The position numbers and the translations under genes are program-made. A DNA stretch of 64,000 nt from Antedon mediterranea (taxonomy: Eukaryota > Animalia > Echinodermata), in NCBI RefSeq assembly GCF_964355755.1, contig NC_092672.1, positions 22,705,237 through 22,769,236 of the forward strand, written 5' to 3'. Below the pieces are notes generated by a model, which saw only the letters and a list, made by a program, of their open reading frames with translations, was not told the DNA's origin and ran no database searches. Within the stretch, counting starts at the first letter, position 1, and each line of letters begins with the position of its first letter. Of this stretch, positions 6,578 to 64,000 are shown one piece after another.

Positions 6578-6888
6578 ATCAGGCACAGAACATTAATTCT
6601 AAACCGCCCGGTGATATACTGAAATTTAATTAATTAATTTGAAACGATAAAGATGAGGAAATCTGTGAGAATGAGAAAAAGTCGCCCGAACCGAGACTCG
6701 AACTCGGACCGCCTGCTTGAGATGCAGATGTCCTAACCATTCGACCACTGGGGCTTTCATGGTATTGTTCGAACTCGATTGGATAGCGACTCTTCAACAT
6801 TCTCGGCGTGGTACGGCGGAACAGCATTAGTCCTCAGTTGTACGCACGCGCACCAGAGATCAAATTGATACGCCCTCATCTTACAGTA
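6578..6888 (-). mobile_element. Interspersed repeat with internal tRNA(Glu-CTC)-like segment (SINE-like), copy 1
   Basis: Minus strand about 6682-6754: A-box-like TGGTCGAATGG, arm TCTGC-ATCTCAA-GCAGG, T-arm CCGAG-TTCGAGT-CTCGG. Same element at 32435-32720 and 56680-56915. Adjacent to (TA)n. Confidence 0.8.
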
Positions 6889-7099
6889 TTTTTATTCACA
6901 TTTTTATTCACATTTTTATATACATTTATATTGACTACCAAAATTTAAGTTTCAGTATTAACCACCATTTAAGCTCTTTTTTAGTTTCATTCCAAAATTG
7001 TTTATATCTCTACCAAGCTACCTTCTTTGTTTTCTACTCTTATTCAGACTCCACCCGGTCTCCTTTTGTTGTATTTCTTTTATTCCTGTCACCCAGGCA

Positions 7100-8900: not shown

Positions 8901-9048
8901 AGCTGAATTTTAGGCCTGAAGTATATGGTAATACACTTATCTAATAGATTTTTGTTTTCTAATTTTGGAGAGGTTTTAGTGACCAGAAGAATAGTAATTA
9001 CTTTGTTGCATTGACAAATTTACACTTTTGTGCTTTTCTTTTTTTTAG

Positions 9049-14717: not shown

Positions 14718-14789
14718 GCAATTCCACTTCTATCCAAGCAGACAATTGAAAGAGTACCACAAACATGTGAAAATATCAAGACAATACTA

Positions 14790-42200: not shown

Positions 42201-45200
42201 CTGCTGGTGATGGTGTAAAACCACTATGAACAAAAAAGACAACAAGTTATCACAAATAAGTAACAAAACAGAGACAAATCTATAATTATGATGAAATAAA
42301 AACTGTAACTTTACATACATGAGAGTGTTTAATGATATTAATGTGTTTATTTTTATTACCCAGGGTTACATACTGCCACCATTGTCAGATATTTTAGTAA
42401 ACATCTTGCATTCCATGTCTGTAATAAAACAATAATAAATAACAGAGAATAACAAACGTTTTTGTATGCTCACAAAAAATATTGACTAAACTGCATTTGT
42501 GAAAATGGGTTGCCAACATTCCCTCTTTGCACGTCTGGCAAGCATTTATGTGACATTCAATAAATGCTGATTTTGTAACAGTGTCCTTTGAAACAGTAAA
42601 AACAAATTATAGCACTCTCTATTACTTGTCCATGCTTTTAGCCTCTCTATTTTTATTTAAGTTTGGGCCTCTCCATTATTTCAAAATAAACAAGAAATGG
42701 TTTTAAAGGTAAAAAATTGACTCTGATTACATTGGTGAAAACAAACGTAAAACTGAAATTGTTGAATTACCTTTCCAGAACCACTTTCACCGCTGACAAT
42801 TATTGACTGATTAATCTTGTATAGTCTTCTAGTAAGATTACACAAAGCTGTTTCTGCAATTCCAAATACATGTGGTGGGTGTGCCTGAAAAAAAATAAAA
42901 TAAAAAGATGTATATTCCCCAAAAAACATGAAAATGAGGATTAATAAAATCAAGCCATTTTACTGTTTTAAAAAAGTTATTCATTTTAAAGAAATAAAAA
43001 CAAACAAATATAGTGTTTTTACTTTAAAAAAAGACAAAATTAATGGTTAAACTTAACCAAATGTTAAAAAATTACAGTTTTTCAGGTAAATAATGTTTTT
43101 TTTTCAATTTTTGGTCAAAGTGAATAACTACAGTATTATGTGACATAAAATAGCATATTCAGCAAAACAATTATCTTTTCAGAGGAGCTCTGCATATATC
43201 TCTAAGTTCTCACTTGTAAGTGCAACTGAGGACATATTAATATTTTTGCCCAATATTGAAGATAAAGTGAAGTCAAGATTTTAATAGTGATGTCACCAAC
43301 ATATAAATTTTCCTAAAAATCAATAGTATACTAGCGAATCATTGTTTACCTTTTGATCACTATGGTAACGATGAATCATATGAACATCAAAATGTCCAGT
43401 TTCTTTGAAAGGATTTAAAGTAACAAGGGTGTTGCCAGTCTGAGTGTGGTATCTACCAGCTAAGTAGCGCTCACGTAAACAGTTCAGCACTATGAACAGA
43501 AAAACTTAGGTTAAGTAACAAGTGTGTTGCCAGTTTGAGTGTGGTATCTACCAGCTAAGTACCGCTCATGTAAACAGTTCAGCACTATGAACAGAAAACA
43601 TTAGAAGTAACAAGTGTGTTGCCAGTCTGAGTGTGGTATCTACCAGCTAAGTACCGCTCATGTAAACAGTTCAGCACTATGAACAGAAAACATTTTGTTA
43701 AGTAACAAGTGTGTTGCCAGTCTGAGTGTGGTATCTACCAGCTAAGTACCGCTCATGTAAACAGTTCAGCACTATGAACAGAAAACATTTTGTTAAGTAA
43801 CAAGTGTGTTGCCAGTCTGAGTGTGGTATCTACCAGCTAAGTACCGCTCACATAAACAGTTCAGCACTATGAACAGACAACATTAGAAGTAACAAGTGTG
43901 TTGCCAGTCTAAGTGTGGTATCTACCAGCTAAGTACTGCTCAAGTGTGTTGCCAATATTTTGTCAAATTTTCTTCAAATTATTCGCTGTTCTACTCTAAA
44001 AATGTATTACTGAACTATAAATTTTATTTTAAAGTGAGTATTTAATTTGGAAAAATTTGAAGGAAAATGTTGGATTCATCCAAATTGTGGTCTTTGATCT
44101 CTAATTAGTTAGAGGGAGGCAACAGCTAATGGTAAAAAATAGGTGATCATCTGGCTTTAAATTAGATTGAGCTTTTAATTAAAGGAGTCTTTAATAGAAG
44201 GAAGACCTGTATAGTACTAACAACCATTGAAACATGTGTCTACTATTAATTCACTTACCAGCAGGTTCTGAGAGAGGATTAAGCAAAACAAGATCATCTG
44301 TATTGATCCAATCTGTTTGAGTACACAGCACTGGATAGCCAGCATGACCACGTATCACAACCTCCTAGACAATGAAGTTACAAGCAATATTTAAAATACA
44401 TTATATAGAATACTTAGTAGCAAGGTTGGGTTGTTAACATAGATGGTATGCTTCCCTCCCCTCCTTACCTCACAATTATATTTTGTGTCTATAATCTTGC
44501 CATCACTAAAACATGAATTAACACACGCTGGAACCCAAACCTCTTACCTGGCCATTAGATTTAGTGACTATAAACTTGCCATCACTAAAACATGAATTAA
44601 CACACGCTGGAACTCAAACCTCTTACCTGGCCATTAGATTTTGTGACTATAAACTTGCCATCACTAAAACATGAATTAACACATGCTAGAACCCAAACTT
44701 CTTACCTGGCCATTAGATTTAGTGACTATAATCTTGCCATCACTAAAACATGAATTAACACACGCTGGAACCCAAACCTCTTACCTGGCCAATAGATTTA
44801 GTGACTATAATCTTGCCATCACTAAAACATGAATTAACACACGCTGGAACCCAAACCTCTTACCTGGCCATTAGATTTAGTGACTATAAACTTGCCATCA
44901 CTAAAACATGAATTAACACACGCTGGAACTCAAACCTCTTACCTGGCCATTAGATTTTGTGACTATAAACTTGCCATCACTAAAACATGAATTAACACAT
45001 GCTAGAACCCAAACTTCTTACCTGGCCATTAGATTTAGTGACTATAATCTTGCCATCACTAAAACATGAATTAACACACGCTGGAACCCAAACCTCTTAC
45101 CTGGCCATTAGATTTAGTGACTATAAACGTGCCATCACTAAAACATGAATTAACACACGCTGGAACCCAAACCTCTTACCTGGCCAATAGATTTAGTGAC

Positions 45201-48200
45201 TATAATCTTGCCATCACTAAAACATGAACTAACACACGCTGGAACCCAAACCTCTTACCTGGCCATTATATTTAGTGACTATAATCTTGCCATCACTAAA
45301 ACATGAATTAACACAAGCTGGAACCCAAACCTCTTACCTGGCCAATAGATTTAGTGACTATAATCTTGCCATCAATAAAACATGAACTAACACACGCTGG
45401 AACCCAAACCTCTTACCTGGCCATTATATTTAGCGACTATAATCTTGCCATCACTAAAACATGAATTAACACACGCTGGAACCCAAACCTCTTACCTGGC
45501 CATTAGATTTAGTGACTATAAACTTTCCATCACTAAAACATGAATTAACACACGCTGGAACCCAAACCTCTTACCTGGCCATTAGATTTAGTGACTATAA
45601 TCTTGCCATCACTAAAACATGAACCAACACACGCTGGAACCCAAACCTCTTACCTGGCCATTATATTTAGTGACTATAATCTTGCCATCACTAAAACATG
45701 AATTAACACACGCTGGAACCCAAACCTCTTTTTCATCATGTATCCACACCATTAACCCCTGAAAGTACAGTAAACAGTTCATTATTCAATTCAATCAACT
45801 TTTATTATCCACAATCTGATTCTTTTGGTTGTGGCAGACTCACAAATGTAAATAAACATTTAAAACAAACATTTAAAATACACATGTATACAAATTATTG
45901 CTAAAGAGTAATTTTTGTAAAGTCTAACAGCTTTCATAATAAATTATTCATTTGGAGCTTTGAGGACTAAAATATGTATTGAAAAGAGGATGTGTTTCAT
46001 TTTGAAGGATCTAATATTAATTATTCTGTATATAAATCTTTATGTTAAAACCATTAATGAATACGTACATGTGTGACGTTTCAACTTGTTTTAACAAGTC
46101 AGGGAATGACTATTTGTAATCTGTAATAGTCTGTGATTTTCCGAAGTTCTTTGCCTTTTTAGGGGGCGCTAATCTACAACTAGCAAAGCTACAGTACTCC
46201 TAGCAACTACTAACATCTAGTCAGTTGCCAGATGAAGACTTATTAAAAACAAGTTGAAACGTTGCACATGTACGCATTATTTTTAAACAATCTACTGATT
46301 TAAAGAAGGGCTAGACAGATGGAATTAGTAAATTAACCAGCCATGTGTGGGCAACCATTTCATTCCATGTTTTGATACCCTATGAATAACTGTGCCAAGT
46401 GTCAGAATGTTCACTTCAGGTCTACTAAAGTAGGCCTACTACAGTATCATGACAGAGAGAATATCAACAGCATTTTCCTTTACCTTTTTGAAACGACATG
46501 CTGGTTTCTTTTCAACTTGTGGTGGAATGCATCTAGGCCTAGATTTAGTAATAATCTGAAAAAAATAGCGAAATGCTAAATTTTTACAAACAAATTTTTA
46601 TGAACATATAACCACTTGTGACCTAGCCTAGCTAGGAATTTAAATGGTTATTTGGCCCTATACTACTATTATAGCCTAGACAGGCCTGCCTACAGTACTA
46701 AGTACTAGGAACAGCTAGGCTAGGCTTTTGCAGAAAAGTGTAGTCGGTCTGATTTGATTTGAATTGATTAGAAAATCATCATAAAAGATTTTGCAGGATA
46801 GCCCAAAAAGCTTAGGCCTAAATAAACATTCATCCCTTATAGTACCAAACAAATATTGACCAGAACCAGCAATCAGCAACGCTCCATACTGAACACCCGA
46901 TTTTATCTGAACCAAAATAAAACGTTATCGATTTTACCATATATCAAACATAAAACTACCGCATTGGGCCCTGCGCTAATACGATCGGGCCCAGCAAATG
47001 AGACGATAGAGACCAAACTGGTTCCTAACACATGAGACGATCGGGCCAACGCATGAGACGATCGGGCCAACGCATGAGACGATCGGGACCACATTTTCTG
47101 GGCCCAAGACGATCGGGCAGCAAATAAAAAAATTTTACTGTGATAACGGCCTAGACTTTGGTTAGGCCTAATATAGTTAGTAATAATACGATTTCGATCC
47201 AAGTCGGCCCTAAACCGTCTCGGCCAAAGTCAAGTCGGCCCCAAGTAAACCCCAAGTCAAGTCGGCCCCCCGTCAAGTCGGCCTCAAGTCAACTCGGCCT
47301 CAAGTCAACTCGGCCTCACGTCAACTCAGCCAAAAAATAATCGGTCAACTCGGCCCCATTAAAGTATGGAACGCAAAAAGTGCAAATGAAGGGGATTGAT
47401 AAAATAATATTTCTTCACAATTTTTTAACTATGAATAATTCTGACTTTTAATGAATATCAATATTTAGACAATAATATATTTAGCAACAAAAACAGGAAT
47501 GATTTCACCAACTTTCCTTTATTTACGTTTAATAAAATTTCAAATTGCACAATTGAAAACAATTCGTAGCTGCGCCTCCCTGTGCGTTTGGCAGCTTTTT
47601 TGATATCTACAACTGCTATGTGTTTTCGCTGACCGGGGGATTCCTCTTTTTTAAAAACGCAAAGCATGGACAAAAACGATGTACGATCATTTTTTCTATG
47701 GCCAAATGTGATGGAACGTAGGCCTCCGTCTTCGATTTACTAAATGCAATAGGCCTACCTGCACATGTTTTTGTAACACGCGGGTACTTCTATTCATATC
47801 GGCAATGAGTTCACAGGGAAAAATTTCATTTGAAAATTTTGTTTAGCAAAATTGCTAATCAATTTAAATTTAAATTAATTTTTTAGTCAAGAAAGATAGT
47901 TTTGTATTGTATTTTTTGCTACACAATTGTAGAAATGTGTAGCAAAAAGGTTGTTTTGTATAGCTTTTTGCTATGCTACACTGGCGAAATTATTCCCTGG
48001 TTCATTTTTTTATATGATATTATTATATTATATTTTTTATTTCTTCATTTTTTAGAGTGGATAGGCCTAGAGGCCTAGTAATAATCATAATAACATTAAG
48101 TACTTTTTGCGTTCCATACTTTAATATTGTGGCCGAGTTGCAGTTGACCGATTAGTTTTTGGCCGAGTTGACGTGAGGCCGAGTTGACTTGGGGCCGAGT

Positions 48201-48574
48201 TGACTTGGGGCCGACTTGACGTGGGGCCGACTTGACGTGGGGCCGACTTGACTTTGGCCGAGACGGTTGGGGCCGACTTGACCTGCACCCAATAATACCC
48301 TACCCAGGCCTACCTACCTAGCCTAGGCTACTAGCTAGGCTATATAGCTAAGCCTAGGCTAGGAGTATAGGCCTACTACTAGGCCTAGCTAGGCTAGGCT
48401 AGCCTGGCATTTATTGCACCTGACCTGCATTATCCTACATAATTGCCTGTACCTAGCCTAGCTAGGCGCCGCCTAGTAATTGCGGCGCTAATGCAGTTTC
48501 GTACCCACCCCTTAAAATTACTCAAAATCTTCATCCAACCTACTCACGAGTTGTCTACAGCATTCTGCAATCAT
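27285..48574 (-). CDS. MYO19: Unconventional myosin XIX-like, 23 exons, about 1096 aa
   Basis: Exons 48548-48574 (tentative start), 46484-46555, 45654-45758, 44259-44364, 43350-43489, 42771-42884 (GESGSGK), 42360-42418, 42150-42223 (SNPILEAFG), 41277-41346 (NHNSSRFGK), 41010-41112, 40167-40364, 39092-39179, 37850-38036, 37177-37366 (LLDVYGFE), 36729-36839, 35831-36007, 34719-34811, 33882-33935, 33183-33361, 31814-32003, 28565-28691, 28323-28465, 27285-27968. They sum to 3291 nt, in frame. [28 protein letters not shown] and three IQ-like motifs match class XIX as recalled. Confidence 0.88.
27655..27822 (-). repeat. 42-bp in-frame coding repeat, about 4 copies ([14 protein letters not shown]), in the myosin tail
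   Basis: Unit GGTAAACTTATCTCTCTTGTCTTGATCTTCAACTTCTTTACT on the + strand. Confidence 0.95.
29383..31805. mobile_element. Non-autonomous TTAA-targeting DNA transposon (Kolobok-like), about 2.4 kb, in a MYO19 intron
   Basis: TTAA at 29379-29382 and 31806-31809. TIR AGATGTATTGTCCCCC / GGGGGACAATACATCT. Related decayed ends at about 42903-43205 and about 53845-53860. Confidence 0.85.
32045..32435. repeat. 77-bp minisatellite, 5 copies
   Basis: Unit begins AAACAACACACTGGCAAGTATG. Explains three near-identical spurious ORFs. Confidence 0.95.
32435..32720 (-). mobile_element. tRNA-containing interspersed repeat, copy 2
   Basis: Collinear with 6578-6888, with internal deletions. Flanked by TA-rich runs. 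Confidence 0.8.
34100..34692. repeat. 22-bp minisatellite, about 26 copies
   Basis: Unit TTGTTAGTATGGTGTTACTACA. Confidence 0.95.
38392..39037. repeat. 49-bp minisatellite, about 13 copies
   Basis: GT(C/T)GCAACTACTTTAAGC at 38401, 38450 and onward. Confidence 0.95.
39385..40091. repeat. 77-bp minisatellite, 9 copies
   Basis: TCACTGATG(T/C)TTACTGTCCACATG at 39385, 39462 and onward. Confidence 0.95.
43420..43952 (-). repeat. About 93-95-bp tandem array made of a MYO19 splice acceptor + 5' part of exon 5
   Basis: CAGCACTATGAACAG (minus strand: ctgttcatag|TGCTG) occurs five times between about 43485 and 43875. Confidence 0.92.
44494..45730 (-). repeat. 79-bp tandem array made of the last 75 nt of MYO19 exon 3 + donor GTAA
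   Basis: CTTACCTGGCC recurs every 79 bp from about 44547 to 45653 (15 donors). Confidence 0.95.
47190..48290. mobile_element. Non-autonomous element with long (about 180 bp) TIRs built of 15-bp subrepeats, in MYO19 intron 1
   Basis: CAAGTC(A/G)..TCGGCC repeats at 47200-47355 are mirrored at 48130-48280. TTAAAGTATGGAACGCAAAAAGT mirrors ACTTTTTGCGTTCCATACTTTAA. AATAATA on both flanks. Confidence 0.85.
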
Positions 48575-50032
48575 AAAATTGTAAAAAATCGAAATTTTTT
48601 TATTTAAAACTATTTTTAATCAATTAATACTGACCACCCTTCGGAAATACATCGCCAGCTTAGCTTCGCGAAAATCATCGCTAGGCCTGCCGATAAAAGT
48701 ACGGAGGCCTCACAGGACATTAACTCTATTAATAGAGTAAACAGTTGCGTTCTATAGAGGGCGTAGTTACTAACGTTTAAAGCCCGCACCAAATAATTAT
48801 AATTTTCATTATTTCCGACATGCGTTTCGTATTTTTAATAAAGAAAAGAAATACTATACAATTGCTGTATTCATCATTGTGGGTATCATCATAATTATGT
48901 TATGTTTTTAATTTGTTCTTTCATTTTACTAGTAGAATTTCACACAGAAAAGAAGATAAATATGGAACTGCTGACTCTTGAAGATATAAGTACTACTGAC
49001 CAATTTTCCTCTGTTTTAGTTTATTTTACATTATGGTTTGTAGGTCAAATAAATAAATGAAATGAATAAAAAGAATTACAGTACTTCATTCCTGAGTTAC
49101 ATTGTTAATGTTATAACACAATAATCAAGCTATGACGAATTAATTGTTTTAGTATTTGTTATCACTAGCTATACTAGAAACGCTAATGGTTTCCCTGTTT
49201 TAAGATTTTATAGAAGTATATTATTATTAATTAACATTTTTTATGTTTTTAATTTGTTCTTACATGGAAATAGGAAATGCAACAAAAACAGAAAGATATA
49301 ATTTATTGAAATGTAATGTACAGTAATACAATAATTATAATAAAAATGTTTTCCATCAATTACTAGAATTTATTTTACTTCTGCTGACACTGAATACATC
49401 ATTTCATGTCTTTCATAACTTTTTTTTTATCTTCTTTCCTGTTGTGTTTATTAAAATAAAATCAAATAAAACATTAAATAATGAAGCAACTATTCATTAA
49501 TTTATTTCAACAATATTTTATGAGGGTGGTCCATCCAGCCGAAGCTGATCATTAGGGACCCTTACAAAAAATATAATTTGACAAGACAATAACACACAAT
49601 ATTCAAAATAAATAGAATTTCTAAAAATTAACAACATAATTAAACACAAAATATTTCTTTATGAAAAAAACTTAAAATCCGTTTCACGAGGAACATGTAA
49701 AAAATATTTTATTATCGCCATAATATGATCATAACAGCGTCCTCTATAGATCGATGCCCTATGAGGCCTCCGTACTTTCATCGGCAGGCCTAGCGATGAT
49801 TTTCGCGCAGGCCTAGCGATGATTTTCGCGAAGCTAAGCTGGCGATGGATTTCTGAAGGGTGCTCAATTATTAATTGATTAAAAATAGTTATAAATAAGA
49901 AATTATCGATATTTTACCATTTTATGCTTGCTGAATGCTGTAGACAACTCGTGAGTGGGCTAGATGAAGTATTGAAATCATTTTGAGTAATTTTAAGGGG
50001 TGGGTACGAAACTGCATTAGCGCCGTAATTGC
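48476..50032. repeat. About 295-bp inverted repeat (arms about 48476-48770 and 49731-50032) containing the putative MYO19 first exon and upstream region
   Basis: GCGCTAATGCAGTTTCGTACCCACCCCTTAAAATTACTCAAAA mirrors TTTTGAGTAATTTTAAGGGGTGGGTACGAAACTGCATTAGCGC. Both arms carry ATG + 8 codons + GTGAGT. Confidence 0.9.
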
Positions 50033-50409
50033 ATTAATTTAGTAACTTACTTTTTTGCCTACTGGAATGTAATTATTGCTTTTTTCCATCAAAATAGTTG
50101 TCTTTTTGATAGGCCCGCCTCCTCTCACTTAATTCCCCAAAACCAACAGTTCCTTTTTTTTTTCAAAAACACCGCCGCGCGCCACCTATAATAAAGTATC
50201 TAATAAAAAAAATAAAAAAAATCGCTGTGTACCGCCCTCTCTGTTATGACTCGGTGACCTTAAAATAAACAACAGCTATTAATTAAAATTACACATGTTT
50301 TTTGCTATGATTTTGCGATCAATCAATCAACAAGATAGAAGCCAAGGTTTAGCTAGGCTACAGAACAGTCAGTAAGCATACAGTTACGTAGGCCTAGAAA
50401 ATTAATAAA

Positions 50410-52453
50410 ATGAGTCTTGATGATAGAAAGAGCTTCTATGTTTGTAGTTGTTACTACACCCATAACATATTTTTACCTAAGTTTAAACTGCATGTGACGT
50501 AGGCCTATATAGATGATAAAATATTTGCTAATATTTGGAAACCGGTAAAACCTGTTGCTGCCAAATCTTCTTTGTACTAGGCCTAGGCCTAGACAGCAGA
50601 ACCTGGTCTGGTCCTAGTTAAGTAGAACTAGTAGGCCTGTCTAAACTAACCCTACCCTAGACCTTTATTTTGGAAATTAGATTTTTGCCGCTGTAGCCAT
50701 ACTGAAAACTTTACATATATGAATTTATGATATAGGCCTTAGTCTAGGGTATGCAGTATTTTTATAATTTACATGCACAGGTCAAAATTAACAAATTATG
50801 CATTATGATGGTACAGTACGGTAGTACTGTAGTTTCCATAAGTGCTCCGTTTAAGCACTGAGTGAGTACATAATTATATGGTATGTAATTTAAATGTGAA
50901 TGGGAAATAGAGAGAAACAAGCTTCAAATTGGAGCTACTGTATAGTACATATAATATTAATAATAAAATGTGAATTGTTTGTGTATTATTTTGTAGATTA
51001 TTAAAAACAAAGGGTGTGACAATGAAGAAGGATTCACAGACGTTCTGAGAGTCGTAAGTAATTGATGTTTTAATTTATGTAATTATGTTAAGTTATCTGG
51101 CTGATAATGGTACAAGTAGCAAAATACAGTTCATGTGTGTGTTGTAGCAGAATACGGTACCTGTATAGCAGAATATGGTACATGTGTAGCAGAATACGGT
51201 ACCTGTGTAGCAGAATAGTGTACATGTGTAGCAGAATACGGTACATGTGTAGCAGAATACGGTACATGTGTAGCAGAATACGGTACATGTGTAGCAGAAT
51301 ACGGTACCTGTGTAGCAGAATACGGTACCTGTGTATCAGAATACGGTACCTGTGTAGCAGAATACGGTACCTGTCTAGCAGAAAATTTTTCCCATAGTGG
51401 GACATTCAAATGCAAAACTATATTTTCTTTATTTTATTTCATACCATTAAACACATGTTATCTCACTAACAATTCATTTCAGGTTAAAACAGAAGTAAAA
51501 CGTAGAAAATCACTTGGCCGAGATTATTTAAAGAGAAAAGAGACAATTTTAAAACATTACACACCACTCCATCAAGAGATATACAAACTACAGGTATGTA
51601 ATTAAGTAGTAAAAAAATTAAAAGAATATTTTACCTGTTAACTACACCTTGCTGACGAAACACAACTATAAATGCATGTCTGATTTTGTAAAGAACAACT
51701 ATTACAACAAATGTTTAGCTTGACTATTTGCCTGACTACAACTGACAAGGACAACTTCCCCCTTTAGTTATATATTTAGTCAAGATATTTAACTAAAAAA
51801 TTTGAAATAGTTGGAAAATTTTTCTTCTTTATGGTATTATTTTCTCATTGAAATTGTTGTAGATTTCATTTCTGAGCCTAACATTTCTGAAGTTGGTTGA
51901 ACATAGCAAGCAGAAAAATGCATCAATGCAAAGTTTGATAAAACTCATGAGTACTGAAAAAGGTTTGTTGATAGTTGACCTATTGTAATCAAATTCTATA
52001 AAAAATTAGTAAAGGATTCTAACTTAAATAACTGTACATTGTGAAGCTCATTCTGCCGTGGAACAGTAATCGAAAAAGATAAAAATCAAAGCTATACACT
52101 AGTAGAGCAAGCTTTCCTATATGATTAAAACTATTTGACGAAAAGGCATATTTCAAACACATTAAAGGAAAAGTTAAGCACACAAAAAATGGCAAAATTA
52201 CATGTTTTTGCATTGTTATTTTGTGAACAATGGATGTTCTATAACTCATTAAAATGGCATTCAAAAACTTGCATATTTACTGTAATTACGTTTTATGTTT
52301 CACATTTAACTGTTTTTTTTTTATGTAGGAGAGCGTATTTACTCTTTTCCAATATTTACTGAAGAGTTTTGTAATTCATTTAAAGAAGAAATAGAACATT
52401 TTGAAAACACAGATTTACCAAAAGGAAGACCAAATACAATGAACAATTATGGT
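50410..52453 (+). pseudogene. OGFOD2: 5' half of OGFOD2 (2OG-Fe(II) oxygenase domain-containing 2); exon 1 has an in-frame TAG, catalytic exons absent; exons 2-5 open
   Basis: Exons 50410-50544, 50997-51053, 51483-51593, 51863-51962, 52329-52453 give FYVCSCYYTHNIF..LHVT*A..IIKNKGC..EVKRRKSLG..RIYSFPIFTEEFC..EEIEHFENTDLPKGRPNTMNNYG. This matches recalled human OGFOD2 (RIYRVPVFTAPFC..EELEHFEQSDMPKGRPNTMNNYG). Confidence 0.85.
51143..51382. repeat. 21-bp minisatellite, about 11 copies
   Basis: Unit TGTAGCAGAATACGGTAC(C/A)TG. Confidence 0.95.
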
Positions 52454-53093
52454 GTAAGTGTGGCTACCGTAAATGCCCTGCTTTGCATAAACTAATCAAA
52501 AACCCCACCTCAAATATTAACTCCCCTACCCCATTAACATCATTTGGTATAAATGCCCCTCATAAACATTAGTAGGGTAGGAAGGAGGGGTTACCGTGCA
52601 CCCCCATGATGTATTTTTTTAATGTACATTTTTGTAATCCTGAATATATATAATTAACATTTTTTGATGTTCCCAAGACGAAATATTGTCCCATGGGGTC
52701 TTTTGGGAGCCATTTTGGTGGCCATCTTGGATTTATCAAAATCATAAATATAGACGGTACTTGACAAAGACTGATCATAGAGGTCTGATTTTGGTCTTAA
52801 ATTGTTCAGAATATGCACATTTCTATGTACTATAATGAAAAGTTTTCGTTCAAAATGGCCGTAAATTCCACTTTTGACCTTTGACCTTGTTTTTACATAA
52901 GGGTCATATCTTGGTAACCCCTGGTCATAAAGATTTTATTTTTATCTTAAATTGTTCAGAATATCCATATTTATATTAGCTTTAATGGAACATATTTTTG
53001 AAATTTGACAGGAAATATCATTTTTTACCTTTGACATTATTGCATAACGATTTTCGCAATAATTTAGACTATTTTTGTATTTTGTGACAATTG

Positions 53094-53537
53094 TAACAAA
53101 AGGTGTGTACACACTATAACAAAAGGTGTGTACACACTATAACAAAAGGTGTGTACACACTATAACAAAAGGTATGTACACACTATAACAAAAGGTATGT
53201 ACACACTATAACAAAAGGTGTGTACACACTATAACAAAAGGTGTGTACACACTATAACAAAAGGTGTGTACACACTATAACAAAAGGTGTGTACACACTA
53301 TAACAAAAGGTGTGTACACACTATAACAAAAGGTGTGTACACACTATAACAAAAGGTGTGTACACACTATAACAAAAGGTGTGTACACACTATAACAAAA
53401 GGTGTGTACACACTATAACAAAAGGTGTGTACACACTATAACAAAAGGTGTGTACACACTATAACAAAGGTGTGTACACACTATAACAAAAGGTGTGTAC
53501 ACACTATAACAAAAGGTGTGTACACACTATAACAAAA
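53094..53537. repeat. 23-bp minisatellite, about 19 copies
   Basis: Unit TAACAAAAGGTGTGTACACACTA. Confidence 0.97.
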
Positions 53538-54322
53538 TGGCATGTTTTTTTGTTTAGTAATGTATGAAATATTTATTTTAGATGCCCCACGGTACAGAGG
53601 GTTACTTGTAAATTTAACAATTGGTGAACATATGAAAAATTGACATAATTCGTTTTTGCTTTAGCGTACATTCTAGGCTCCCCGACGAGGGGGTTAGATT
53701 GTAGTAATTTAAACCAAAAAAATAGTAAAATTGGCTGCTAGTCAGTGGGTTTTTGCTTGAATGTAACCATTTATTTTGTCATTTTATAAGTGACCAATTT
53801 ATTTATTTTTTCATTTTTTTTTTCATCTTTCATGTTTTTTTGTGGGACAATACATCTTTAATGAAATTGTTGTTAATATAAAAGTTGCTTTCAAAAGACA
53901 TCAGACCTCCCAACTCTCTCCCTAAAATACAATTTATTTTGGATTAACCAACAAAATATCCAAAGTTGTTAAAAAAAATGTTACTACTCTAGAAATAAAC
54001 TGAACGTAAGATATTCATGGATTGTTTAATAAGTGAAGTAATAAGTTTGCCATGTTTACTATTATAAATAATAAGTGTTCTTGGATTGGATGTATTTTTT
54101 TTGTAAGTAAATATTATAGCACCCCTCTATAGTGTGGACATGCTTTTATAAAATCTTCCAATATTTCTAAGTTGGGAAGTCCAAAACTTCCGTATAATGG
54201 TTATCTTCAAAATTATATTAATAATTAGAGCATAGCATTTCATATTTGTATAGAAGCCTTTACCAGTGACATTGCTTTAAATCTTAATTACTTTACAGAT
54301 TCACATTTTTATTTCTTGCCAG

Positions 54323-57300
54323 GAAAAGTCACGCCCAAGTAAGAGAGACAGAAAGTACAAAGGAATAACATTTCCTGGTATAAATTGGGGGAAAAAAATT
54401 TTTCGTCAAAAGGTAAGTTTTTCTCTAATCAGTTTATTGAGTTTGGTGATTTACGAATTGATTTAGAAATAAATATTCATGTACATTTTGATAAACTAAA
54501 TGTATGTTTTTTAGTTCAAAACTACCACAAACAGCAAAACCACCACAAATAGTGGTAAGTTCATTTTATTTTTCTAACAGCTATACAATGTCAAGTTAAC
54601 TCAGTTCATCTAATAGATAAATTATGATTTTCTTATACTTTATTTTGTATTTAATCAAATTTTAGAGGTGAATACTGAAACACCTGCAAAAGCTAAAGAT
54701 GTGAGTACTACAATATAGCATTTGTTGACTGTTCTATTTAACTCAACTCTACCTCCTCAAAAAGAATAATCCATCTTTCTTTCAACTCACAAATTCATTA
54801 CTTGTATACTGTTTAAAATGAGGAATTAAATCTATTATACTTTTAACATTATAGCCCTGGCGAAAGAACAGTGTTTAACTTTTCCTTATTCTATTAAGAT
54901 CCAGCCAATGATAACCATTGACAGTAATTTGCCTTCGAATTTATATACTTACTTTTAACATGGTATATAACATTACACTGATATGAATGGTTCAGAAAGT
55001 AAAACATTTACCTCTATGTTATTTATATAAAATTTGTTATTTTTATTTCTTGTGCATCAGGTTAGCAAGAAATCAACTGCAGAAGGTAAGTGTGTAATTA
55101 ACTTAAATTCTTAATACGTTAATTGTGCAAGTATAAAATAATGGAACATGCTGAGTGAATAATAATAGAATTAGTGAATGATAAAAATGATGATTCACAA
55201 ATAATAATAATAAAGTTGATAAAATTAACAGTGAAAGTGTTTACTACAATGAATCAAGATAGCCTTTCTACCCAAAGAAGAGCCATTTAATAACCTTTTA
55301 CATCTTTTCTTGTTATTTTAGGTTTAATTAGTTTTATCTTTTAAACATTTTAATTGTAGAAAAAGTGATTTACTGAAATATTGTTGCTACAGTATATAAG
55401 TGCATTATAAATTTATTTTTTATCTTATATAAATATCATGTGTAATATTTTACTGAAATGAGAAAGAGGTAGATCACTATTATTCAAATTGTCATTTAAG
55501 TGCAATAATGTTAAAAACAAAAACCAAAAATTAGGGTGAGACCACGAAACACAACCAAAAAAATGAACGTAAAGATATAATAATAAAGATAATGACAACA
55601 GAAAATTACCACAGAGAAGATGTCATTGATAATAGTAAGATTTAGACAAATTATAATAGTTGTAGAGATGATAATGATGATATATTCAATGTCTATTATC
55701 TTTTTACATATATTTAGTCTATTTGATTTGTAAACAATATTTTTTACACATTTTTCCCGTTGATTAATAAAGGAACTGAAGATGCATCATTGAATGTTCA
55801 ACAATCGTTGGATAAATATATTATTCAGGAAATTTTTTCAAAACAAGAAGTAAAACAGTCTCCTTTGGAAACTTTTAACATTTGGGATCACGGGAGACAG
55901 TTAATCTATCAAGGAATACATCAGGTAAGTTTTGGACATTTTGTATGTTTGTATGGTCTATTGTTTGTGTATTAACAGTTTTAATGCCTAATTATGGCAG
56001 TATCTTATCTGTATCACATGGATAGGATTCTGCTGTGTGTAGATAGGTGGGAACATGCCCACTGTAAAGATTGTTGTTTAGGCCTTCCACCTATCTTAAT
56101 GTTAACAGATTACCCAACAAACCTCTGTGTATCTCTTCACACACCCAATCTATAAGTTTTGCAAGCTATCCATAGACTTCTCTCACTACATGTGAAGTGA
56201 ATTTGAAGAGCTTTTTCTCTATTTAGAACTCTTAACTATTTATAAAGTTTACTTTTCTTTATTCTAATATATTTGTATTCTATTCACATTATTTCTATAT
56301 TGCTGTTTTAAGAGATAAGTATTTCTTTGATGATATGCGGTCTATATGTTCTGGATATATTTATTGATTTTAGAAAACACTGCATTCTATTACATCAGTA
56401 GGCTTTACTATCCTTGTCAAATAGTTTATAAATAATTGTTTTTATTTTGTATGCAGATCTTTGTGACATCAGAGGCAGTTTATGTTGCTGTCTTTGATTT
56501 GAGTAAAGACCTCGATGATCCTGCAATAGTAATAGATCCTAATGGGGTAAGTATTTCAGGGGTATTAGATTAGATTAGATGTTGTTGACAATCTCATTCA
56601 TTAGTTAAAAGTAAATTGCTTTCATTGCATTGCAATGTAGCTGTGTCAAAGAATGTCATACTTACTTTTATATATATAGACTAGTGCTGTTCCACCGTAC
56701 CACGCCGACAATGTTAAAGAGTCGCTATCCAATCAAGTTTGAACAATACCATGAAAGCCCCAGTGGTCTAATGGTTAAAGCAGAAGGTTCCGGGTTCGAG
56801 TCTCGGTTGGGAAGATTTTTTCTCATTCTCGCAGATTTCCTCATCTTATCATTTCAAATTAATTAATTCAATTTCAGTATATCACCGGGTGGTTTAGAAT
56901 TTATTCTGTGCCTGTAATGTTTATATGTATATATGTATATAATAACATAAAGTTGAAATTATACGATTTTTATTTGGTACTAAAATAATATACAATTTCT
57001 TATAGATTTTTATTATTTGAAATTAAATTATTTTTTACAGCAAGAACGTGAACATCATTGGACAAATCGTCAGTTTTTACTGTCTTCGATCCTGTCAGTT
57101 TATTCCCATAGTCGTATATTGGGACAGAATATTGAGAAGGAAGTAAATTTACCTGCTATCCTTGTTGTTGGCACACACAAGGCAAGTCTGGGAGAAACAG
57201 AAGAAGAACAAAATAAAGAGGTTAGTAATAATCTAGAATAGGTTTGTGTTTACAGTTAATACAAAGCTTAAAATATTTGTCTTGGGCACATGTACCACAG

Positions 57301-60300
57301 TGGGTATAGTAAATTTAAACTGTAGGACTAATAATCAATCAATTTTCACAGTTATAAATCCACCAAATGTAATTTAGCTTTTTGTGCAAATTAAGTTGAC
57401 ATGACATAAAACAAGTGATTGTCAAATTTGAAATATATAAAAAATATACTTGATGAAAATGAAACATAGAAGAGGTAATTTAGACTTTATTAATATTACT
57501 ACATGTTAGCATTTTAAGGTTTTAAAATAAAGTTTTGGGGAGAAAAATTAACAATTCTTTTTGTATGTTTAAATACGGTGCTGTTTTTATTTTCTTTTGT
57601 TTGTATATATTATGTAGTAGTGTTTACTTTTTGTTTAATCTAGGCAGAGGTGGTGTTACAGAAAGTTAAAGACTCCATGAAAGGAAAACCATATGAAAAA
57701 CATGTACTTGGATACTATGCTGTTGAAAACAGTAGGGAGACTACAGACAAGAGCTTTAGTGATCTGAAAAAAGTAATTCAGGATCTTATGAACCATTTAA
57801 AAAAGTCTATTCCATTAAAGTGGATGCGGTTTAGATGTGAAATGTATAATCTGAGGAAGGACAAATTGATATGTTCTGCAGAAGAGGTAAATTTTTATTT
57901 TATTATAATTTTTTTTTTTAGGGAAAGCAAAACTTGTTCAATAAATATTGTGAGGCAAAGCACCTTTCTTTAACAACACATTCAAGACTATCTGCTCTTG
58001 AAAACAAATCACCAGATTCTATTATACTTGTAATTGGTGATGTTAATAAATGCCACCTTAACTATCCGGGCTATGTTCAATACATTAATAAACCAACTAA
58101 CTCCCGTACCACTTTAGGTGCCTCGAATCATAACACAATATGTATGTTGCCGAAATACAGGCAATACTTTAATAATAAATTTAAGCCTGCTACAATTAAA
58201 TACCGCTCCTGGACAAGAGATGCAATGGTCAGACGTGTACTATGACAACACTGGCATAAATGCTAGTGTGACTGTCATCAATGAATACATCAAGCAATGC
58301 ATCAACAACGTGATCCCAATTAAACATAAGAAGTCATACTTACACAACAAACCTTGGATGTCTAAAAATATTGCAACATGCGAAAAACAGCGTGCCTTTG
58401 CTAATAATGTCTACAGTCTCGTGAAACAAAAAGAAATTAGAAATTCAAAAACTGTGATAGCCAAGCAGCATGTAAAGCAATGCAAACCATAACTGGTTTT
58501 AACTGTAAACAAAAAAAGGATATAAATGGTAATACAAACTAAACTTGTAAATAACCTCAATGAATTCTATTGTAGATTTGACAAATACGACTTTAGTGAT
58601 TGTATTAATGCAAAAGTTAAGTTACTAGAAAGCAAAGTTAAACTATTAGATCATGAATCTTACATGTTGCATGTCAATGAACACTTAGTTAAGCAGGTTT
58701 TAGGTGTTAAGGTAACTAAATCTATGGGCCCTGACGGTATTAGTAATAAAGTCCTGAAATGCTTTAGCCACCAATTGTCGGCAGTTTTCACTAAACTATA
58801 TCAATGCTCTATAGACTTTGGATTGATCCAAAATATTTAGAAAACTTCTCTAATTTCTTCTTTACCAAAAGCTAAAAATAAACCTCCTACTTACCTCAAT
58901 GATTACCGTCCCATCGCGTTAACATCAAATCCCATGAAATGTCTCGAATCATACTAAGAGCACTGGGAAAGTCAAAAGATGAATACCGCAAATGATATTA
59001 ATCAGTTTGCATATAAACCAAACCAAGGTGTGGATGATGCTGTGATCATATACAATGTCTATAAACACCTAGAAAAACTAAGATCCTACTGTATATCAGG
59101 TTAACCTTTATTGACTTTTTCAGTGCCTTTAACCATACTTTAACTGTATTCAATCCCACCTACTCATTGATAAGATGTATAAATTAAATTTCAATAATAA
59201 AATTTTCTTTGGCTTAAGTTACCTGAGAGAGAGACCACAGTATGTTAAAATCAGTGATACACAATCTGAATTACGCAAAGTTAGCACGAGCGCACCACAA
59301 GGCTGTGTCCTATCACCCATTTTATTCAAACTCTATACCAGTGACTACTTATGTAAAGAGCCAAAATGCTCAATTATCAATTAAGCTGAAGACACTGTCA
59401 TAACAGGTTTTATGTCAGATAAACCAAATGGCTATTTTGATGATGAAGCTAACCAGTTTGCATAATGGTGTAGAGATAATTTTTTAGAGCTAAACATTAC
59501 GAAAACTAAAGAACTTATTATCGATTTTAGAATTAAGAAACCTCAAATTGAACTTCTCCTTATTGATGGTGAAGATGTTGAACGAGTCAACAAATACATA
59601 TATTTAGGAACCATAATTGACGAGAAACTCACTTGGATCGACCAAGCCGTGGTAAAGAAAGCTAACTAAACTATACTTTTTAAGGAAACTTTTAATGTAG
59701 ATAGTAAAATACTGTTACTTTTTTATAAAGCTGTTGAATATAATCTGTTACTATGGGAACACTTCACAATTGATTACTATAAAAAGCAATACAAGCGTGT
59801 AGTCTACAACACCGATTTGAATACCGTCTCCTAATTGTATGAAGATTGTTTGATTAAAAAAGTGAAAGCAATAATGGATAACGATACCCACCCGCTCAGG
59901 CCTTCTTTTATGCTTAATCAAACCGGACGTAGAGTACCGCTTAGAATACGAACTTCATGATACCGATTATCATTCGTCTCACAATGCATTTTCGAGTATA
60001 ATAACACAAGTTGATAATAATTATAATCAATCTTACACAGAATTTATAATATTAATTACACTCTCTGTAAATTATATTTCTTGTTTCGTTTTTATATCTG
60101 TATTTTATAGTACTGTATTTTTATATAAACTGTAGTTTTATATGAATTTGTTTACATTACATACTGTGTATTTTATATGAATTTGTTTACATTGCATATA
60201 ATAATATGAATTTGTGTATTTTTAACTTTTTTAAGTTATTCTAAATGTTTTATGCTGTTTATTGCCTTGAAATTTCAAATTATATATTTTTTGGCAATAA

Positions 60301-63300
60301 AGTTATCTTGGATCTTGAATATGCATTGGCTTATAACTTTTAATTCAGGTTTAGATTTATTATTCATTCATTCAATTCATGTAAGACTTTGATAAAGGTT
60401 TTTCCTTTTATATATTATGTTTATTTCTGTTATATTTATATTTACTTTTAATTTATGTTTGAACAAGGAAAGTCTTACATGAATGAATAATAAATCTTGA
60501 GTATTGTATTTTGACGTTGAACTTGAGTGCAGAAAGTTATTTTGAAGAAACACCTACTTATTGTGTGGAGTACAACACTTGTATATTTATTTAAATTTTA
60601 AAAACATGCATTTTTGTTGATTTTAGGTTAAAGAAATGGCCAGACAAAACGGAATTGGTAATGAAAGCCAACAGTTAATTATGCTTAACTTTCTGTACGA
60701 CCTTGGTGACATAATCTACTTGCCTGATAATGAATTATTACGAAATCAAGTGGTGTTGGACCCAATGAGTCTTGTTCAGTTTGTAACAGCATTTGTGACA
60801 GTCGTTACACCCGATGAGTTTAAAGTAAGTGGGCTTATGTTGATGAAAAAAACACTCATTCGTTCAGAAGTTGACAGATAAAAAAAATGCTAGATTGGTG
60901 AAACTTTTAATTAGTCTTAAACTTTCTCTAATTTATCTGTAAACCCTAACACAATAAAGTTTGTTTCATTTGACACAAATGTTCCAATTGTGGTAAAACA
61001 TGTGATGAATCTATATATAGGAGTATTTTTAGAATGTGGTACGCAATGTCGATACTGAAACATACCCACACACAATAATATTATGCTGCTTTGCAGCAGG
61101 CTATCTCCATCTACAATAATTGTTTTGTGTATGATATAATTGTGAAGGTCCACCCAAATTCATCAAAGGTGTCAAAACAAAATTGGCTTTGTTTAAATTT
61201 GTTTCAATATTTGGACAATTTTTTACTACATACATGACCACCATCATATTTGCAGGTATAGCCCTCCAGTACACATATACAATAGCTTGTCTACATTTTT
61301 TTTTATGTCAAAGCTTCATTACAGTATTAAGAACCATTTGAGGGCACTTCCTAGATACAGGATACGAAAAGCAAGCATACCCTCTAGTTAAATTAATTAT
61401 ATTGGTTCTCATAAAAATTCTCTTCTTTCTCTTAACATTCAATCACTACTGGTTCATGGACACAAAAGTACATTTTGATTGTTTTGTTATTTTAGACACC
61501 TCAGTACCTTGAAGCCTTTAGAAACCTTGACAAAGGCATACTGGATGAGATGTTGTTAAAGAAATTGTGGGAGAAGAAGGGTATTGATAGTAAGAAATTC
61601 CAATACCTTGTAGACCTGATGATTCGATTTGGTTTCATTTGTGAGAGAACAACCTCCACCAGCCAAGCCAACACAGCAAGTACATCTACAGTAAGATTTT
61701 TTCTCAACTTTTTTGCACAAATTTATTTTACGGCCAATATTTTATATGTTTTTTTAAGAACAACCCTGTTGTTGACATACCCTGACTTCTGAGAGGTAGT
61801 TTAAATGGGATATAAAGGAATTTTTGTAATTGATGAAAGCTGCTTACGTTTTGCCCAATAACGCAGTTAGGCCGTCTCAGTCTTGAACCTTCCTTGCTAC
61901 TGGCCTGATTTTAACAAGACTTAGTATTAAAGATGTTAGATACATTGCTTTAAGCACTATTATTTTACTGTACTTGATTAAAGTTTGATCAAGGCAGATT
62001 AGATTTTATTGCATTTTTACACATTTTAACATTAATTATTTCAGAAATCAGTTGTCACGCGATCATTTTTTGTACCACTACGACTTGCTTTTGAGACGTC
62101 ACCATCCAGTGAAGTGAAGTCTGTGCATGATGGGCTCTCTATCAGCATCTATTACGACCTTTGTGGACATCTGCCTGACATACTGTTTCCATATTTAGTG
62201 ATTGATTTCATTAATGAATATCAGAAGGAGACAGAAGATGAACCACAACTATCCCATAATCATGCTGAGCTCTACATAGACCAATGTCATAATGTGATTC
62301 TGTCTCTTGTTCAATTGATAACTAAAGAAGATGAGCGAAAGTTCATGTTAAAGGTGACATTAAATCTTAAATTTAAACTACCAATAGTGTAATGTTATGA
62401 TTTGGTACTATTAATATGTTATATACAAGTGTGCGACAATAATGCATGCAATAGCTTTCAAATCCTAAAAATAATATGCTACAACAGATCAAGTGAAGCA
62501 TATTAAAACTAGAATGGCACTCCGAGAGTGCATACCTCCGCCTACTGTAAAATTCTTAATGCTGCGTGTGATTGGGCTAATTTCACTACAACAATTTGTA
62601 TGCAAGTTTGGTGTAAATGTTATTTAACCAGCCTTTCAACTGACAATAGTTTCAGTTGACTATCAATAGAACAGCAACGACAAAAACAAGAAATTGAAAT
62701 TCCAGTTTATTTGTTACTTTGAGACTGCTCGCCAGCTTTTGAAAATGCTCTCCAATCTTTTAAAACTAGCAGGTTTGAAAATAATAATAAAAAGTCCAGA
62801 ATTGGCATCCTGAGATCCATAAGATTTATTACACACATAATACACAAATATACTTATGTACTTTAAAATGTTTGTCTTTAGGCAACAATTAAAGGCAGAA
62901 TGGCAATTGCAGAAACAGCTACCACAGAATGTGAACCTTCTCCTGAAGCATGTAAACATGTATGTTATGATTTCTTTTAAAACATGCACCATTGGTGGCG
63001 ACATTCAATATTTTTATTCATCGATAAGTCCAGAAAATACGAATACACCGCACAATGAATACGTAGTACCGGGACGATTCGGCCAGGATACGATTCGTGT
63101 ACATACATCATTTCTGCCAGGGGACATAATTGGCATATATTTCGCATCTTACAAGACTTATTTTCAGTACAGGTTAAAATCTCACACACATAGTTTCCAG
63201 AGGGGTTGGCCATGTTTCAGAAATTCCCACTAGAGGGTGCGCGAGTGAAGCAAACAAACTCTCTAGTTAAAAGGAATTATCAACTTTTTTTTCTTACAGG

Positions 63301-63501
63301 TTATGTCAACGCTTGAGATGTCTTTCAAACATTCTAAAGATGGTGGTAGAAGGGGCATTAAATTCCATCGATGCATTCCCTGTGATTGTAGTAAGACATC
63401 TGAGAAGAAACACATGCAAGTTCTTGGAGATTTTCAGGAAGAGATGTTGCCATGCAAAGGAGATCGGATGAATGTTAAACGCTACAAGAGGCTATTTGGC
63501 A
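54323..63501 (+). CDS. Roco-family block C: micro-exon linker + 3' Roc + COR; probably continues beyond the window
   Basis: Phase-consistent exons 54323-54412, 54515-54554, 54666-54700, 55061-55085, 55773-55924 (FNIWDHGRQLIYQGIHQ), 56457-56546 (AVYVAVFDLS), 57041-57220 (ILVVGTH), 57644-57886 (IPLKW), 60627-60824 (LNFLYDLGDIIYL..VVLDP), 61496-61690, 62045-62353, 62882-62959, 63300-63501. Same exon layout as block B. Confidence 0.8.
56680..56915 (+). mobile_element. tRNA-containing interspersed repeat, copy 3 (5'-truncated)
   Basis: Reverse complement of 6578-6835. TGGTCTAATGG and GGTTCGAGTC boxes. TA-rich flanks. Confidence 0.8.
57940..60015 (+). mobile_element. Decayed non-LTR retrotransposon (APE-RT, Rex1/L2-like) in a Roco intron
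   Basis: GDVN, NKPW, KSMGPDGI, LNDYRPIALTS, QFAY, FIDFFSAF, APQGCVLSPILF-LYT and KTKELIIDFR motifs. Many stops and frameshifts; YADD is degraded. Confidence 0.9.
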
Positions 63502-64000
63502 GTAAGTTCAGCAATACTAGAGTACAAATTATACAAATCACTGGTGCATTGTATTTCAGATTAAATTTCATGGGAAGGGGCTTTATTTTAGATTTTGGAT
63601 CATTTGCCATAAGTAGCATTTAGTGTATACTTTTACTGCTTCCTTATCTATTATTGTAATAGAAGTGTAGATACATACAGGTAATGATTCAACAAATTAC
63701 ATGTAATAGAATTTAAACAATAACTATGAAGCGGTTAAAATATGTGCAACAAGATCATCATCATCATCACCCTTCATAAATGAATAGAATAAACTTTAAA
63801 ACGTCATTAAAGACAAGCAATTACCCATAATGTTTAATGTCTGGTAAACAAGCATCATGACACTAGCAGTGGCACTGTGGCTTGGTGTATTACTGTACAT
63901 TAGTCCTTGGTTAAATTCATAATACTAAGATGTTTCTCATGACCCAACAACAACACCGCAATTTACATAGACGAGTGATAATGGTAAGCGGTAAACTGCA

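What the first reader, a model, noticed from the sequence alone, without database searches (positions are those of the whole stretch)
49924..63501. Candidate three-part chimeric gene: MYO19-type first exon + OGFOD2 N-terminal half + Roc-COR
Seen: the 27-nt mini-exon 49924-49950 (MLAECCRQL|gtgagt, phase 0) can join OGFOD2 exon 2 (50997, phase 0) and so bypass the stop in native OGFOD2 exon 1. OGFOD2 exons 2-5 are open and end in phase 0 (NNYG|gtaagt). The next exon found (54323, phase 0) leads through four micro-exons into Roc G3/G4 and COR, with every phase matching and no stop found. Known: OGFOD2 normally continues into its oxygenase catalytic fold, and Roc begins with a P-loop; neither was found here. 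Inference: a young fusion gene built from three unrelated loci, with the OGFOD2/Roco breakpoint in the repeat-rich interval 52454-54322. I do not know of such an architecture.
Basis: partly seen in the sequence, partly recalled or inferred. Interest (0 to 1): 0.88.

Follow-up and report, generated by a model that had tools for sequence, protein, structure and literature searches.

The report
Feather-star OGFOD2–Roco chimeric gene copy
In a feather star, the front half of a housekeeping oxygenase gene (OGFOD2) sits in frame before the back part of a Roco GTPase gene; the join recurs in other gene copies, but this copy carries an early stop and is likely a decaying by-product of local gene duplication rather than a working new gene.

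Summary
The fusion is real in two parts, not three. The window is from an Antedon feather star. OGFOD2 exons 2-5 join 13 Roco exons in one open frame with canonical splice sites. The OGFOD2 catalytic exons and the Roc P-loop are absent. Two RefSeq A. mediterranea models carry the same junction (XP_071943911, XP_071943897). Both parent types lie on that chromosome: full-length OGFOD2 copies, and an unfused Death-Roc-COR gene (XP_071944715) whose P-loop half precedes the same linker exon. A spliced contig from a related organism shows that unfused join. The 'MYO19 first exon' is wrong. It lies in the arm of a 1.5-kb inverted-repeat element with a 6-bp target duplication, inside MYO19 intron 1. 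The true MYO19 exon 1 is 50089-50051 on the minus strand, and MYO19 is intact. This fusion copy has a stop in exon 1 and Gly-to-Arg in Roc G3. No fusion transcript was seen, but the test was weak. Best reading: a young Sdic-like chimera, formed by intronic rearrangement in a duplication array, amplified and decaying. One feature is unusual: a 96-97% identical Roco 5' cassette sits on three different tails.

The parts
27285..50089 (-). MYO19, complete: 23 exons, 1100 aa, open frame
   Evidence: chain open; 95% to P0047, 69% to Anneissia P0048
50051..50089 (-). True MYO19 coding exon 1 (13 codons, phase 0, GTAAGT donor); the upstream Met of homolog P0046 reads Lys here
48483..50025 (.). Non-autonomous inverted-repeat (MITE-like) element in MYO19 intron 1; arms about 280 bp, 46-bp perfect ends, 6-bp target-site duplication at 48477-48482 and 50026-50031; family not identified
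49924..49950 (+).
50090..50409 (.). Head-to-head gap between MYO19 and OGFOD2; inferred bidirectional promoter
   Evidence: sequence; promoter activity is inference
50410..50544 (+). OGFOD2 exon 1, with a 6-nt in-frame insertion that gives TAG at codon 31 (50500-50502, within TAGGCCTA)
   Evidence: homologs lack the two extra codons; not checked in reads
50997..51053 (+). OGFOD2 exon 2
   Evidence: 19 of 19 to P0003, P0042, P0044
51483..51593 (+). OGFOD2 exon 3; Glu-to-Lys at 51498, where all 4 runs laid read the Glu letter
51863..51962 (+). OGFOD2 exon 4
52329..52453 (+). OGFOD2 exon 5, last OGFOD2 exon in the window, phase 0 exit
   Evidence: PF25238 E 4.9e-15; 100% to A. mediterranea proteins
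52454..54322 (+). Junction intron: low-copy OGFOD2 intron 5 to about 52569, then a high-copy repeat (from about 52570), a 23-bp array (53094-53537), then Roco-side intron; break inferred at or after the repeat
   Evidence: depth rises at 52530-52590; no contig bridges
54323..54412 (+). First retained Roco exon (linker inserted in Roc between G2 and G3); in the unfused gene it follows a P-loop-side exon
54515..55085 (+). Three further Roco linker micro-exons: 54515-54554, 54666-54700, 55061-55085
   Evidence: spliced joints in runs X5 and X10; homology to P0052 and P0017
55773..55924 (+). Roc G3 exon; the G3 glycine codon reads Arg at 55895
56457..57886 (+). Roc C-terminal half: exons 56457-56546, 57041-57220, 57644-57886
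60627..63501 (+). COR exons 60627-60824, 61496-61690, 62045-62353, 62882-62959, 63300-63501; the gene runs off the window; the closest relatives continue into two Death domains
   Evidence: PF16095; 92-100% per exon to P0202; Death x2

Best explanation
The locus is a two-part OGFOD2::Roco chimera, likely made by an intron-to-intron rearrangement (deletion or unequal crossover at a repeat) in a young tandem-duplication cluster of Antedon, and this copy is likely a decaying pseudogene. Shown: the OGFOD2 5' half (exons 1-5, no catalytic exons) is followed in phase 0 by a Roco gene cut just after its P-loop half; both parent types exist; the junction recurs in other gene models; this assembled copy has a stop in exon 1 and a G3 Gly-to-Arg change. 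Inferred: OGFOD2 had been duplicated, so the copy beside the intact MYO19 was redundant; the break fell in or after the repeat in intron 5; the fused unit was copied and recombined with neighbouring Roco paralogs in COR, which gave different tails; any transcript from the OGFOD2 promoter yields little or no stable protein, and such a protein would have neither oxygenase nor GTPase activity.
For: Same junction, residue for residue, in P0003 (XP_071943911, 937 aa) and P0038 (XP_071943897). Three full-length OGFOD2 model groups (P0002; P0041/44; P0042/43), two C-half models and three MYO19 models share the same 38.96-Mb contig. Unfused type P0052 (XP_071944715): Death + Roc with P-loop + the same linker exons. 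An 871-nt spliced contig of run X10 has 502 other letters before 54321, and its end translates to the end of P0052's upstream exon. Each fused copy has a different defect: window, stop in exon 1 and G3 Arg (Gly in 106 of 106 stored proteins that match the motif; Gly letter in all 3 runs); P0038 and P0001, native start replaced by upstream sequence; P0038, donor after the first Roco exon read through with Gly for Val; P0003, modelled without exon 1. Weak hint: in run X5 the exon-5 contig runs unbroken to 52456, three bases past the exon end, which fits exon 6 or intron 5 but not a branch to 54323; X5's Roco exon contigs all carry the CA variant at 54368-9, whereas the window, P0003 and P0038 have the AC/Thr form. 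Two more 5'-truncated Roco fragments lie in the same window.
Against: The fused frame is still open over 743 codons, and P0003 is open over 937. The unit exists in several copies. The linker and G3 exons are spliced in X5, and their partner exon could not be seen, so a fusion mRNA is not excluded. The lesions at 51498 and 55895 appear in no run laid, and the exon-1 stop was not read-checked, so some may be assembly errors or belong to one haplotype. No read or contig bridges 52569-54230. RefSeq models are automated predictions and may come from the same individual as the window.
Confidence: 0.7

Rival explanations
1. Functional young chimeric family. The housekeeping promoter drives a GTPase-dead half-Roc/COR/death-fold protein that would dimerise through COR with intact Rocos as a decoy or adaptor. 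Translation would start from an alternative first exon (the transposon-arm mini-exon or the 6-nt ATGATG exon at 50805) or by re-initiation.
For: Long open frames. At least 3 fused copies. The 5' cassette is 96-97% identical among window, P0003 and P0015, while their COR 3' halves are 76-80% identical and the switch is at one intron. Tails differ: Death x2 versus tandem DED (fold match to caspase-8 tDED, E 2.3e-4). The mini-exon has the only GTRAG donor among 26 open ATG..GT candidates in 48000-50990. Dimerisation through COR is described for the C. tepidum Roc-COR (PMC4104024, passages).
Against: Different 5' defects in each copy; G3 Arg here; no junction seen in X5 or X10; the mini-exon route drops the conserved CSC-bearing exon 1; the AlphaFold model of P0003 has pTM 0.31 with pLDDT under 50 over residues 125-253 (shallow mixed alignment, weak evidence). 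In human duplications under 2% of NOTCH2NL-NBPF fusions keep an ORF (PMC6169893 section 6).
Confidence: 0.13
2. A 5'-truncated Roco segment is inserted in OGFOD2 intron 5, and exons 6-7 of this OGFOD2 copy lie beyond 64000. The fusion would then be only a possible mis-splice.
For: The window ends inside the Roco gene; no genome is held; exon 5 in X5 appears to continue to exon 6 or intron 5.
Against: RefSeq models P0001, P0038 and P0003 all end the OGFOD2 part at exon 5 without picking up downstream exons; the exon-1 stop makes this OGFOD2 copy dead either way.
Confidence: 0.11
3. Mis-assembly: two array units were joined at the repeat or 23-bp array in 52570-53540.
For: The junction is repeat-rich and no contig bridges it; the region is multi-copy.
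Against: Three sequence-distinct copies (window, P0003, P0038) share the same junction with different flanking variants and tails; the window holds no N.
Confidence: 0.06

Closest known systems
Sdic of Drosophila melanogaster (PMC7475035, passages)
   Same: Adjacent genes duplicated and fused by deletion, then tandem expansion, unequal crossover and gene conversion; copies alike at the 5' end and divergent at the C-terminal end.
   Different: Sdic is expressed and affects sperm competition. Here no fusion transcript is shown, the copies carry disabling lesions, and the 5' partner gives coding exons.
3'-truncated human segmental-duplication genes with fusion transcripts: SRGAP2B/C, ARHGAP11B, NOTCH2NL-NBPF (PMC6169893, abstract and section 6)
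   Same: A partial duplicate keeps the ancestral promoter and 5' exons and runs into exons of a neighbouring duplicated family.
   Different: Those fusions rarely keep an ORF. This one is in frame, but expression is unproven.
RefSeq model XP_071943911.1 (A. mediterranea, 'uncharacterized protein')
   Same: Same OGFOD2-N + linker + half-Roc + COR architecture and junction; 91-100% per exon up to 60824.
   Different: Has the G3 glycine, a different COR 3' half (77-82%) and a tandem-DED tail; it is an unannotated automated model.
Expanded Roco families with death-fold domains: Trichoplax (PMC4104024 section 5 part 1), brown algae (PMC11378527, abstract), Aplysia TIR-Roco (PMC9334734, passages)
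   Same: Clustered Roc-COR genes with varied flanking domains and a proposed immune role.
   Different: Those keep a whole Roc. None of the passages read describes an oxygenase fragment replacing the P-loop half.

Membership tests
Roco GTPase | COR domain following Roc | tested here: met
   PF16095 on exons 60627 and 61496 (each exon alone is below the curated cut-off); P0003 passes the cut-off; fold matches to LRRK2 and C. tepidum Roco
Roco GTPase | P-loop (G1) and G2 half of Roc | tested here: not met
   No match to P0052 residues 84-199 or to the P0017 P-loop in the window; Pfam Roc profile matched only at positions 45-90 of 119 in P0003
Roco GTPase | G3 DxxG glycine | tested here: not met
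   Arg at 55895 in the window; Gly in 106 of 106 stored motif matches and in solved Rocos; reads show the Gly letter, so the change may be private to this copy or an error
Roco GTPase | GTP binding and hydrolysis, COR dimerisation | not testable with these tools
   needs biochemistry
OGFOD2 2OG-Fe(II) oxygenase | N-terminal OGFOD2-like region | tested here: met
   PF25238 positions 1-90 of 123
OGFOD2 2OG-Fe(II) oxygenase | Catalytic fold with HxD...H (role of these residues recalled) | tested here: not met
   The conserved HYD and distal His columns lie after residue 175; no match in the window
MYO19 exon (for the mini-exon) | Homology to the N-terminus of MYO19 proteins | tested here: not met
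   Motifs ECCR and C[CR]QL in 0 of 49 stored proteins, which include 5 MYO19 homologs; the homologs match 50101-50051 on the minus strand
Cut-and-paste-type non-autonomous element (48483-50025) | Terminal inverted repeats and target-site duplication | tested here: met
   46-bp perfect ends, 6-bp flanking direct repeat
Cut-and-paste-type non-autonomous element (48483-50025) | Dispersed copies or an empty site elsewhere | not tested
Functional chimeric gene (Sdic type) | Two parent genes present, junction in DNA, several copies | tested here: met
   (from gene models; no long read)
Functional chimeric gene (Sdic type) | Spliced fusion transcript | tested here: inconclusive
   contigs only, the two sides laid separately, junction not seen
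Functional chimeric gene (Sdic type) | Selective constraint or phenotype | not testable with these tools
   no paralog DNA for dN/dS; lesions point against constraint

The most novel reading that the evidence does not exclude
A cassette made of the MYO19/OGFOD2 housekeeping promoter, the OGFOD2 N-half and a P-loop-less Roc is being copied onto different Roco tails (Death x2, tandem DED) in Antedon. This yields a copy-number-variable family of constitutively expressed, GTPase-dead Roc-COR death-fold adaptors that tune intact Roco immune or cell-death signalling, with a transposon arm supplying a rescue start exon in this copy.
Probability: 0.12. Interest if true: 0.75.

Novelty: new member of a known kind. 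Interest (0 to 1): 0.36.

Why it matters
It is a well-resolved case of chimeric-gene birth and decay in an echinoderm Roco cluster: both parent types, the break intron and several copies with different tails are identified, so expression and selection can be tested directly. If only decay is found, it is an ordinary product of segmental duplication and a warning about automated models (XP_071943911). If the cassette is expressed, it would be an unusual way to diversify death-fold signalling proteins under a borrowed promoter.

Tried and rejected
No genome is held, so downstream exons and element copies could not be searched. No holder is on record as RNA; X5 is 'RNA?' by the tool's guess, and X5 and X10 show GT..AG joints. 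5 of the 11 listed runs were laid. Rfam: 0 matches in 46000-64000. The bacterial promoter scan does not apply. No terminal inverted repeat was found for the repeat in the junction intron. The AlphaFold model is too poor to judge Roc folding. The ESM Atlas gave no answer. Earlier findings: nothing in 4 look-ups. An early idea that the window's COR 3' half is unique was dropped: P0202 matches it at 92-100% per exon. An early idea that the exon at 13545-14069 is the N-terminus of the 15.7-22 kb Roco was dropped: it matches the C-terminal tail of P0003. Literature: OGFOD2+Roco gave 1 paper, a Parkinson review (listing); OGFOD2+fusion gave 26, 10 listed, none on topic by title or abstract start; Antedon mediterranea+genome gave 49, 20 listed, none on this locus; the TAGGCCTA search gave 283, 15 listed, none relevant. 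Subscription papers were not searched and no supplements were read.
Full report
Source. The window is AT-rich, intron-rich animal DNA with no N. OGFOD2 exon 5 is 100% identical to Antedon mediterranea proteins and 90% to Anneissia japonica, so it is from an Antedon feather star; I did not establish which assembly. No genome is held.

Exon check. The exons listed under parts have AG/GT ends and form an open chain: 0 stops in 751 codons from the mini-exon, 0 in 743 from exon 2 with the donor at 51053. Native exon 1 has two extra codons relative to homologs, the first being TAG. OGFOD2 matches stop at residue 175, and the conserved HYD and distal His columns lie beyond it. The Roc P-loop half is missing. 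In-frame joining is expected by chance most of the time, because 10 of 13 Roco exits and 4 of 5 OGFOD2 exits are phase 0.

The mini-exon is not from MYO19. It sits in the right arm of an element at 48483-50025 with 46-bp perfect inverted ends and a 6-bp flanking direct repeat; the left arm holds its mirror image. MYO19 on the minus strand is complete (23 exons, 1100 aa) and starts at 50089-50051; this exon matches P0046 at 17 of 17 residues and aligns with the Anneissia N-terminus. The element therefore lies in MYO19 intron 1. MYO19 and OGFOD2 are head to head, 320 bp apart. In Anneissia the two genes have neighbouring accessions on contigs of the same length, which suggests the pair is ancestral (inference). 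The mini-exon does have the best donor among 26 open ATG..GT candidates nearby, so its use as an alternative first exon is possible but untested.

The OGFOD2::Roco junction recurs. RefSeq models P0003 (937 aa; PF25238 + partial Roc + COR) and P0038 (207 aa) carry the same join. On the same 38.96-Mb contig are three full-length OGFOD2 model groups, two C-half models, one more N-half model, three MYO19 models and many Roco pieces. The unfused type is P0052: Death domain, Roc with P-loop, then the same linker exons. A spliced 871-nt contig of run X10 (organism B) runs through all linker exons to 56487 and has a different upstream exon whose end matches P0052. So the linker micro-exons are native Roco exons, and the fusion replaced the Death + P-loop half with OGFOD2 exons 1-5. 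Of 203 stored proteins, 36 hit the OGFOD2 N-half, 152 hit Roc-COR and 1 (P0003) hit both; one search listed only the best 150 of 2776 hits, so other fusions are not excluded.

Break position. Contigs follow low-copy OGFOD2 intron 5 to 52569 and end there at a high-copy repeat. The break is therefore at or after that repeat and before 54323 (inference). Nothing bridges the interval.

Mosaic tails. Over exons 56457-60824 the window, P0003 and P0015 are 96-97% identical; over 61496-62959 they are 76-80% identical. Trees agree: a tight starred trio for the 5' part (16 of 26 rows kept for coverage), a loose group for the 3' part (25 of 26 rows). The window's tail matches P0202 and P0104, which end in two Death domains. 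P0003 ends in a tandem-DED fold. That P0015 belongs to a fused locus is inferred only from its accession being next to P0038's.

Signs of decay. Window: stop in exon 1; G3 Gly-to-Arg against Gly in 106 of 106 motif matches and in all 3 runs; Glu-to-Lys at 51498 against all 4 runs. P0001 and P0038 begin with sequence that lies upstream of the native start in the window and skip it; P0038 reads through the donor after the first Roco exon; P0003 is modelled from a 6-nt ATGATG exon that also exists here at 50805. Against this, the window-only letters are seen in no run, contigs drop rare variants, and the stop was not read-checked.

Expression. Run X5 (organism A, RNA by the tool's guess) splices OGFOD2 exons 3-4-5 and the Roco linker, G3 and next exon. 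Its exon-5 contig (depth 136) ends at 52456, sharing GTA with intron 5 (branch depth 49); a strong branch to 54323 would have cut it at 52454 (my inference from contig-graph behaviour). All its depth at 54368-9 (93 of 93) is the CA variant, whereas X1 has both (148 of 463 CA) and the fused models have the window's form. This hints that X5's Roco RNA comes from another copy; that individual may simply lack the fused copies. It is not proof of silence.

Mechanism. Inferred order: tandem duplication of a MYO19-OGFOD2-Roco segment; intronic deletion or unequal crossover joining OGFOD2 intron 5 to the phase-0 Roco linker intron; copying of the fused unit and exchange with Roco paralogs in COR; independent decay. 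This works like Sdic (PMC7475035, passages) and like human 3'-truncated duplicates (PMC6169893, abstract and section 6). It is not a member of the active Roco or OGFOD2 families, because defining features fail. My searches found no paper on this fusion; they cover open-access text only.

Verdict. Observation partly confirmed; the three-part reading is rejected; a two-part chimera is supported at the level of assembled DNA and gene models. Most likely a decaying duplicate (0.70), possibly a functional decoy family (0.13). Interest 0.36.

Noticed in passing
window, 23 sites including 50500-50507: TAGGCCTA occurs 23 times against 0.58 expected, clustered near the promoter-like regions. The exon-1 lesion reads as TA becoming TA-GGCC-TA, like a TA-target transposon footprint (speculation). 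One site is inside MYO19 exon 2 (46534).
   Followed up: partly
window 8967-14718 and 15698-22196 (+): Two more 5'-truncated Roco genes of a more distant subfamily: one has only the COR 3' part plus a DED-like exon (13545-14069), the other runs from Roc G4 through COR to three Death domains. Their shared exons are 85-94% identical in DNA.
   Followed up: partly
window 43418-43942, 44464-45730, 36547-36793, 32903-33223: Tandem arrays built from MYO19 exon ends plus splice sites; 44464-45730 holds 16 copies of an exon 3' end and donor. They offer many alternative donors and probably mislead gene models such as P0047.
   Followed up: no
window 47218-48263: A second inverted-repeat element with 16-bp subrepeats, beside the first, also in MYO19 intron 1; no convincing target duplication found.
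   Followed up: partly
window about 57950-60000: Broken LINE-like reverse-transcriptase fragment in a Roco intron (named by eye, not scanned); the unfused P0052 locus has it too (93% over 59529-59660), so it predates the fusion.
   Followed up: partly
window 57041-57220 and Antedon paralogs: The G4 motif reads GTHK followed by Gly or Ala in the aligned paralogs, without the Asp of typical Roc G4 (typical form recalled); nucleotide specificity of this subfamily may differ.
   Followed up: no
P0020, P0017, P0051, P0203: Crinoid Roco proteins show varied architectures: two Roc units in tandem (P0020), kinase-Roc-COR-Death (P0017), DED-Roc-COR (P0051), ankyrin-Roc-COR (P0203). At least 25 Antedon models hit one COR exon.
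   Followed up: no
window 6552-6907, 32411-32739, 56679-56941: Three copies of a dispersed repeat of about 300 bp, 82-88% identical; SINE-like by eye, no Rfam match for the copy at 56.7 kb.
   Followed up: no
window 11583-12481 (-): Two ORF fragments that look like a retroelement gag-like region, by eye only.
   Followed up: no
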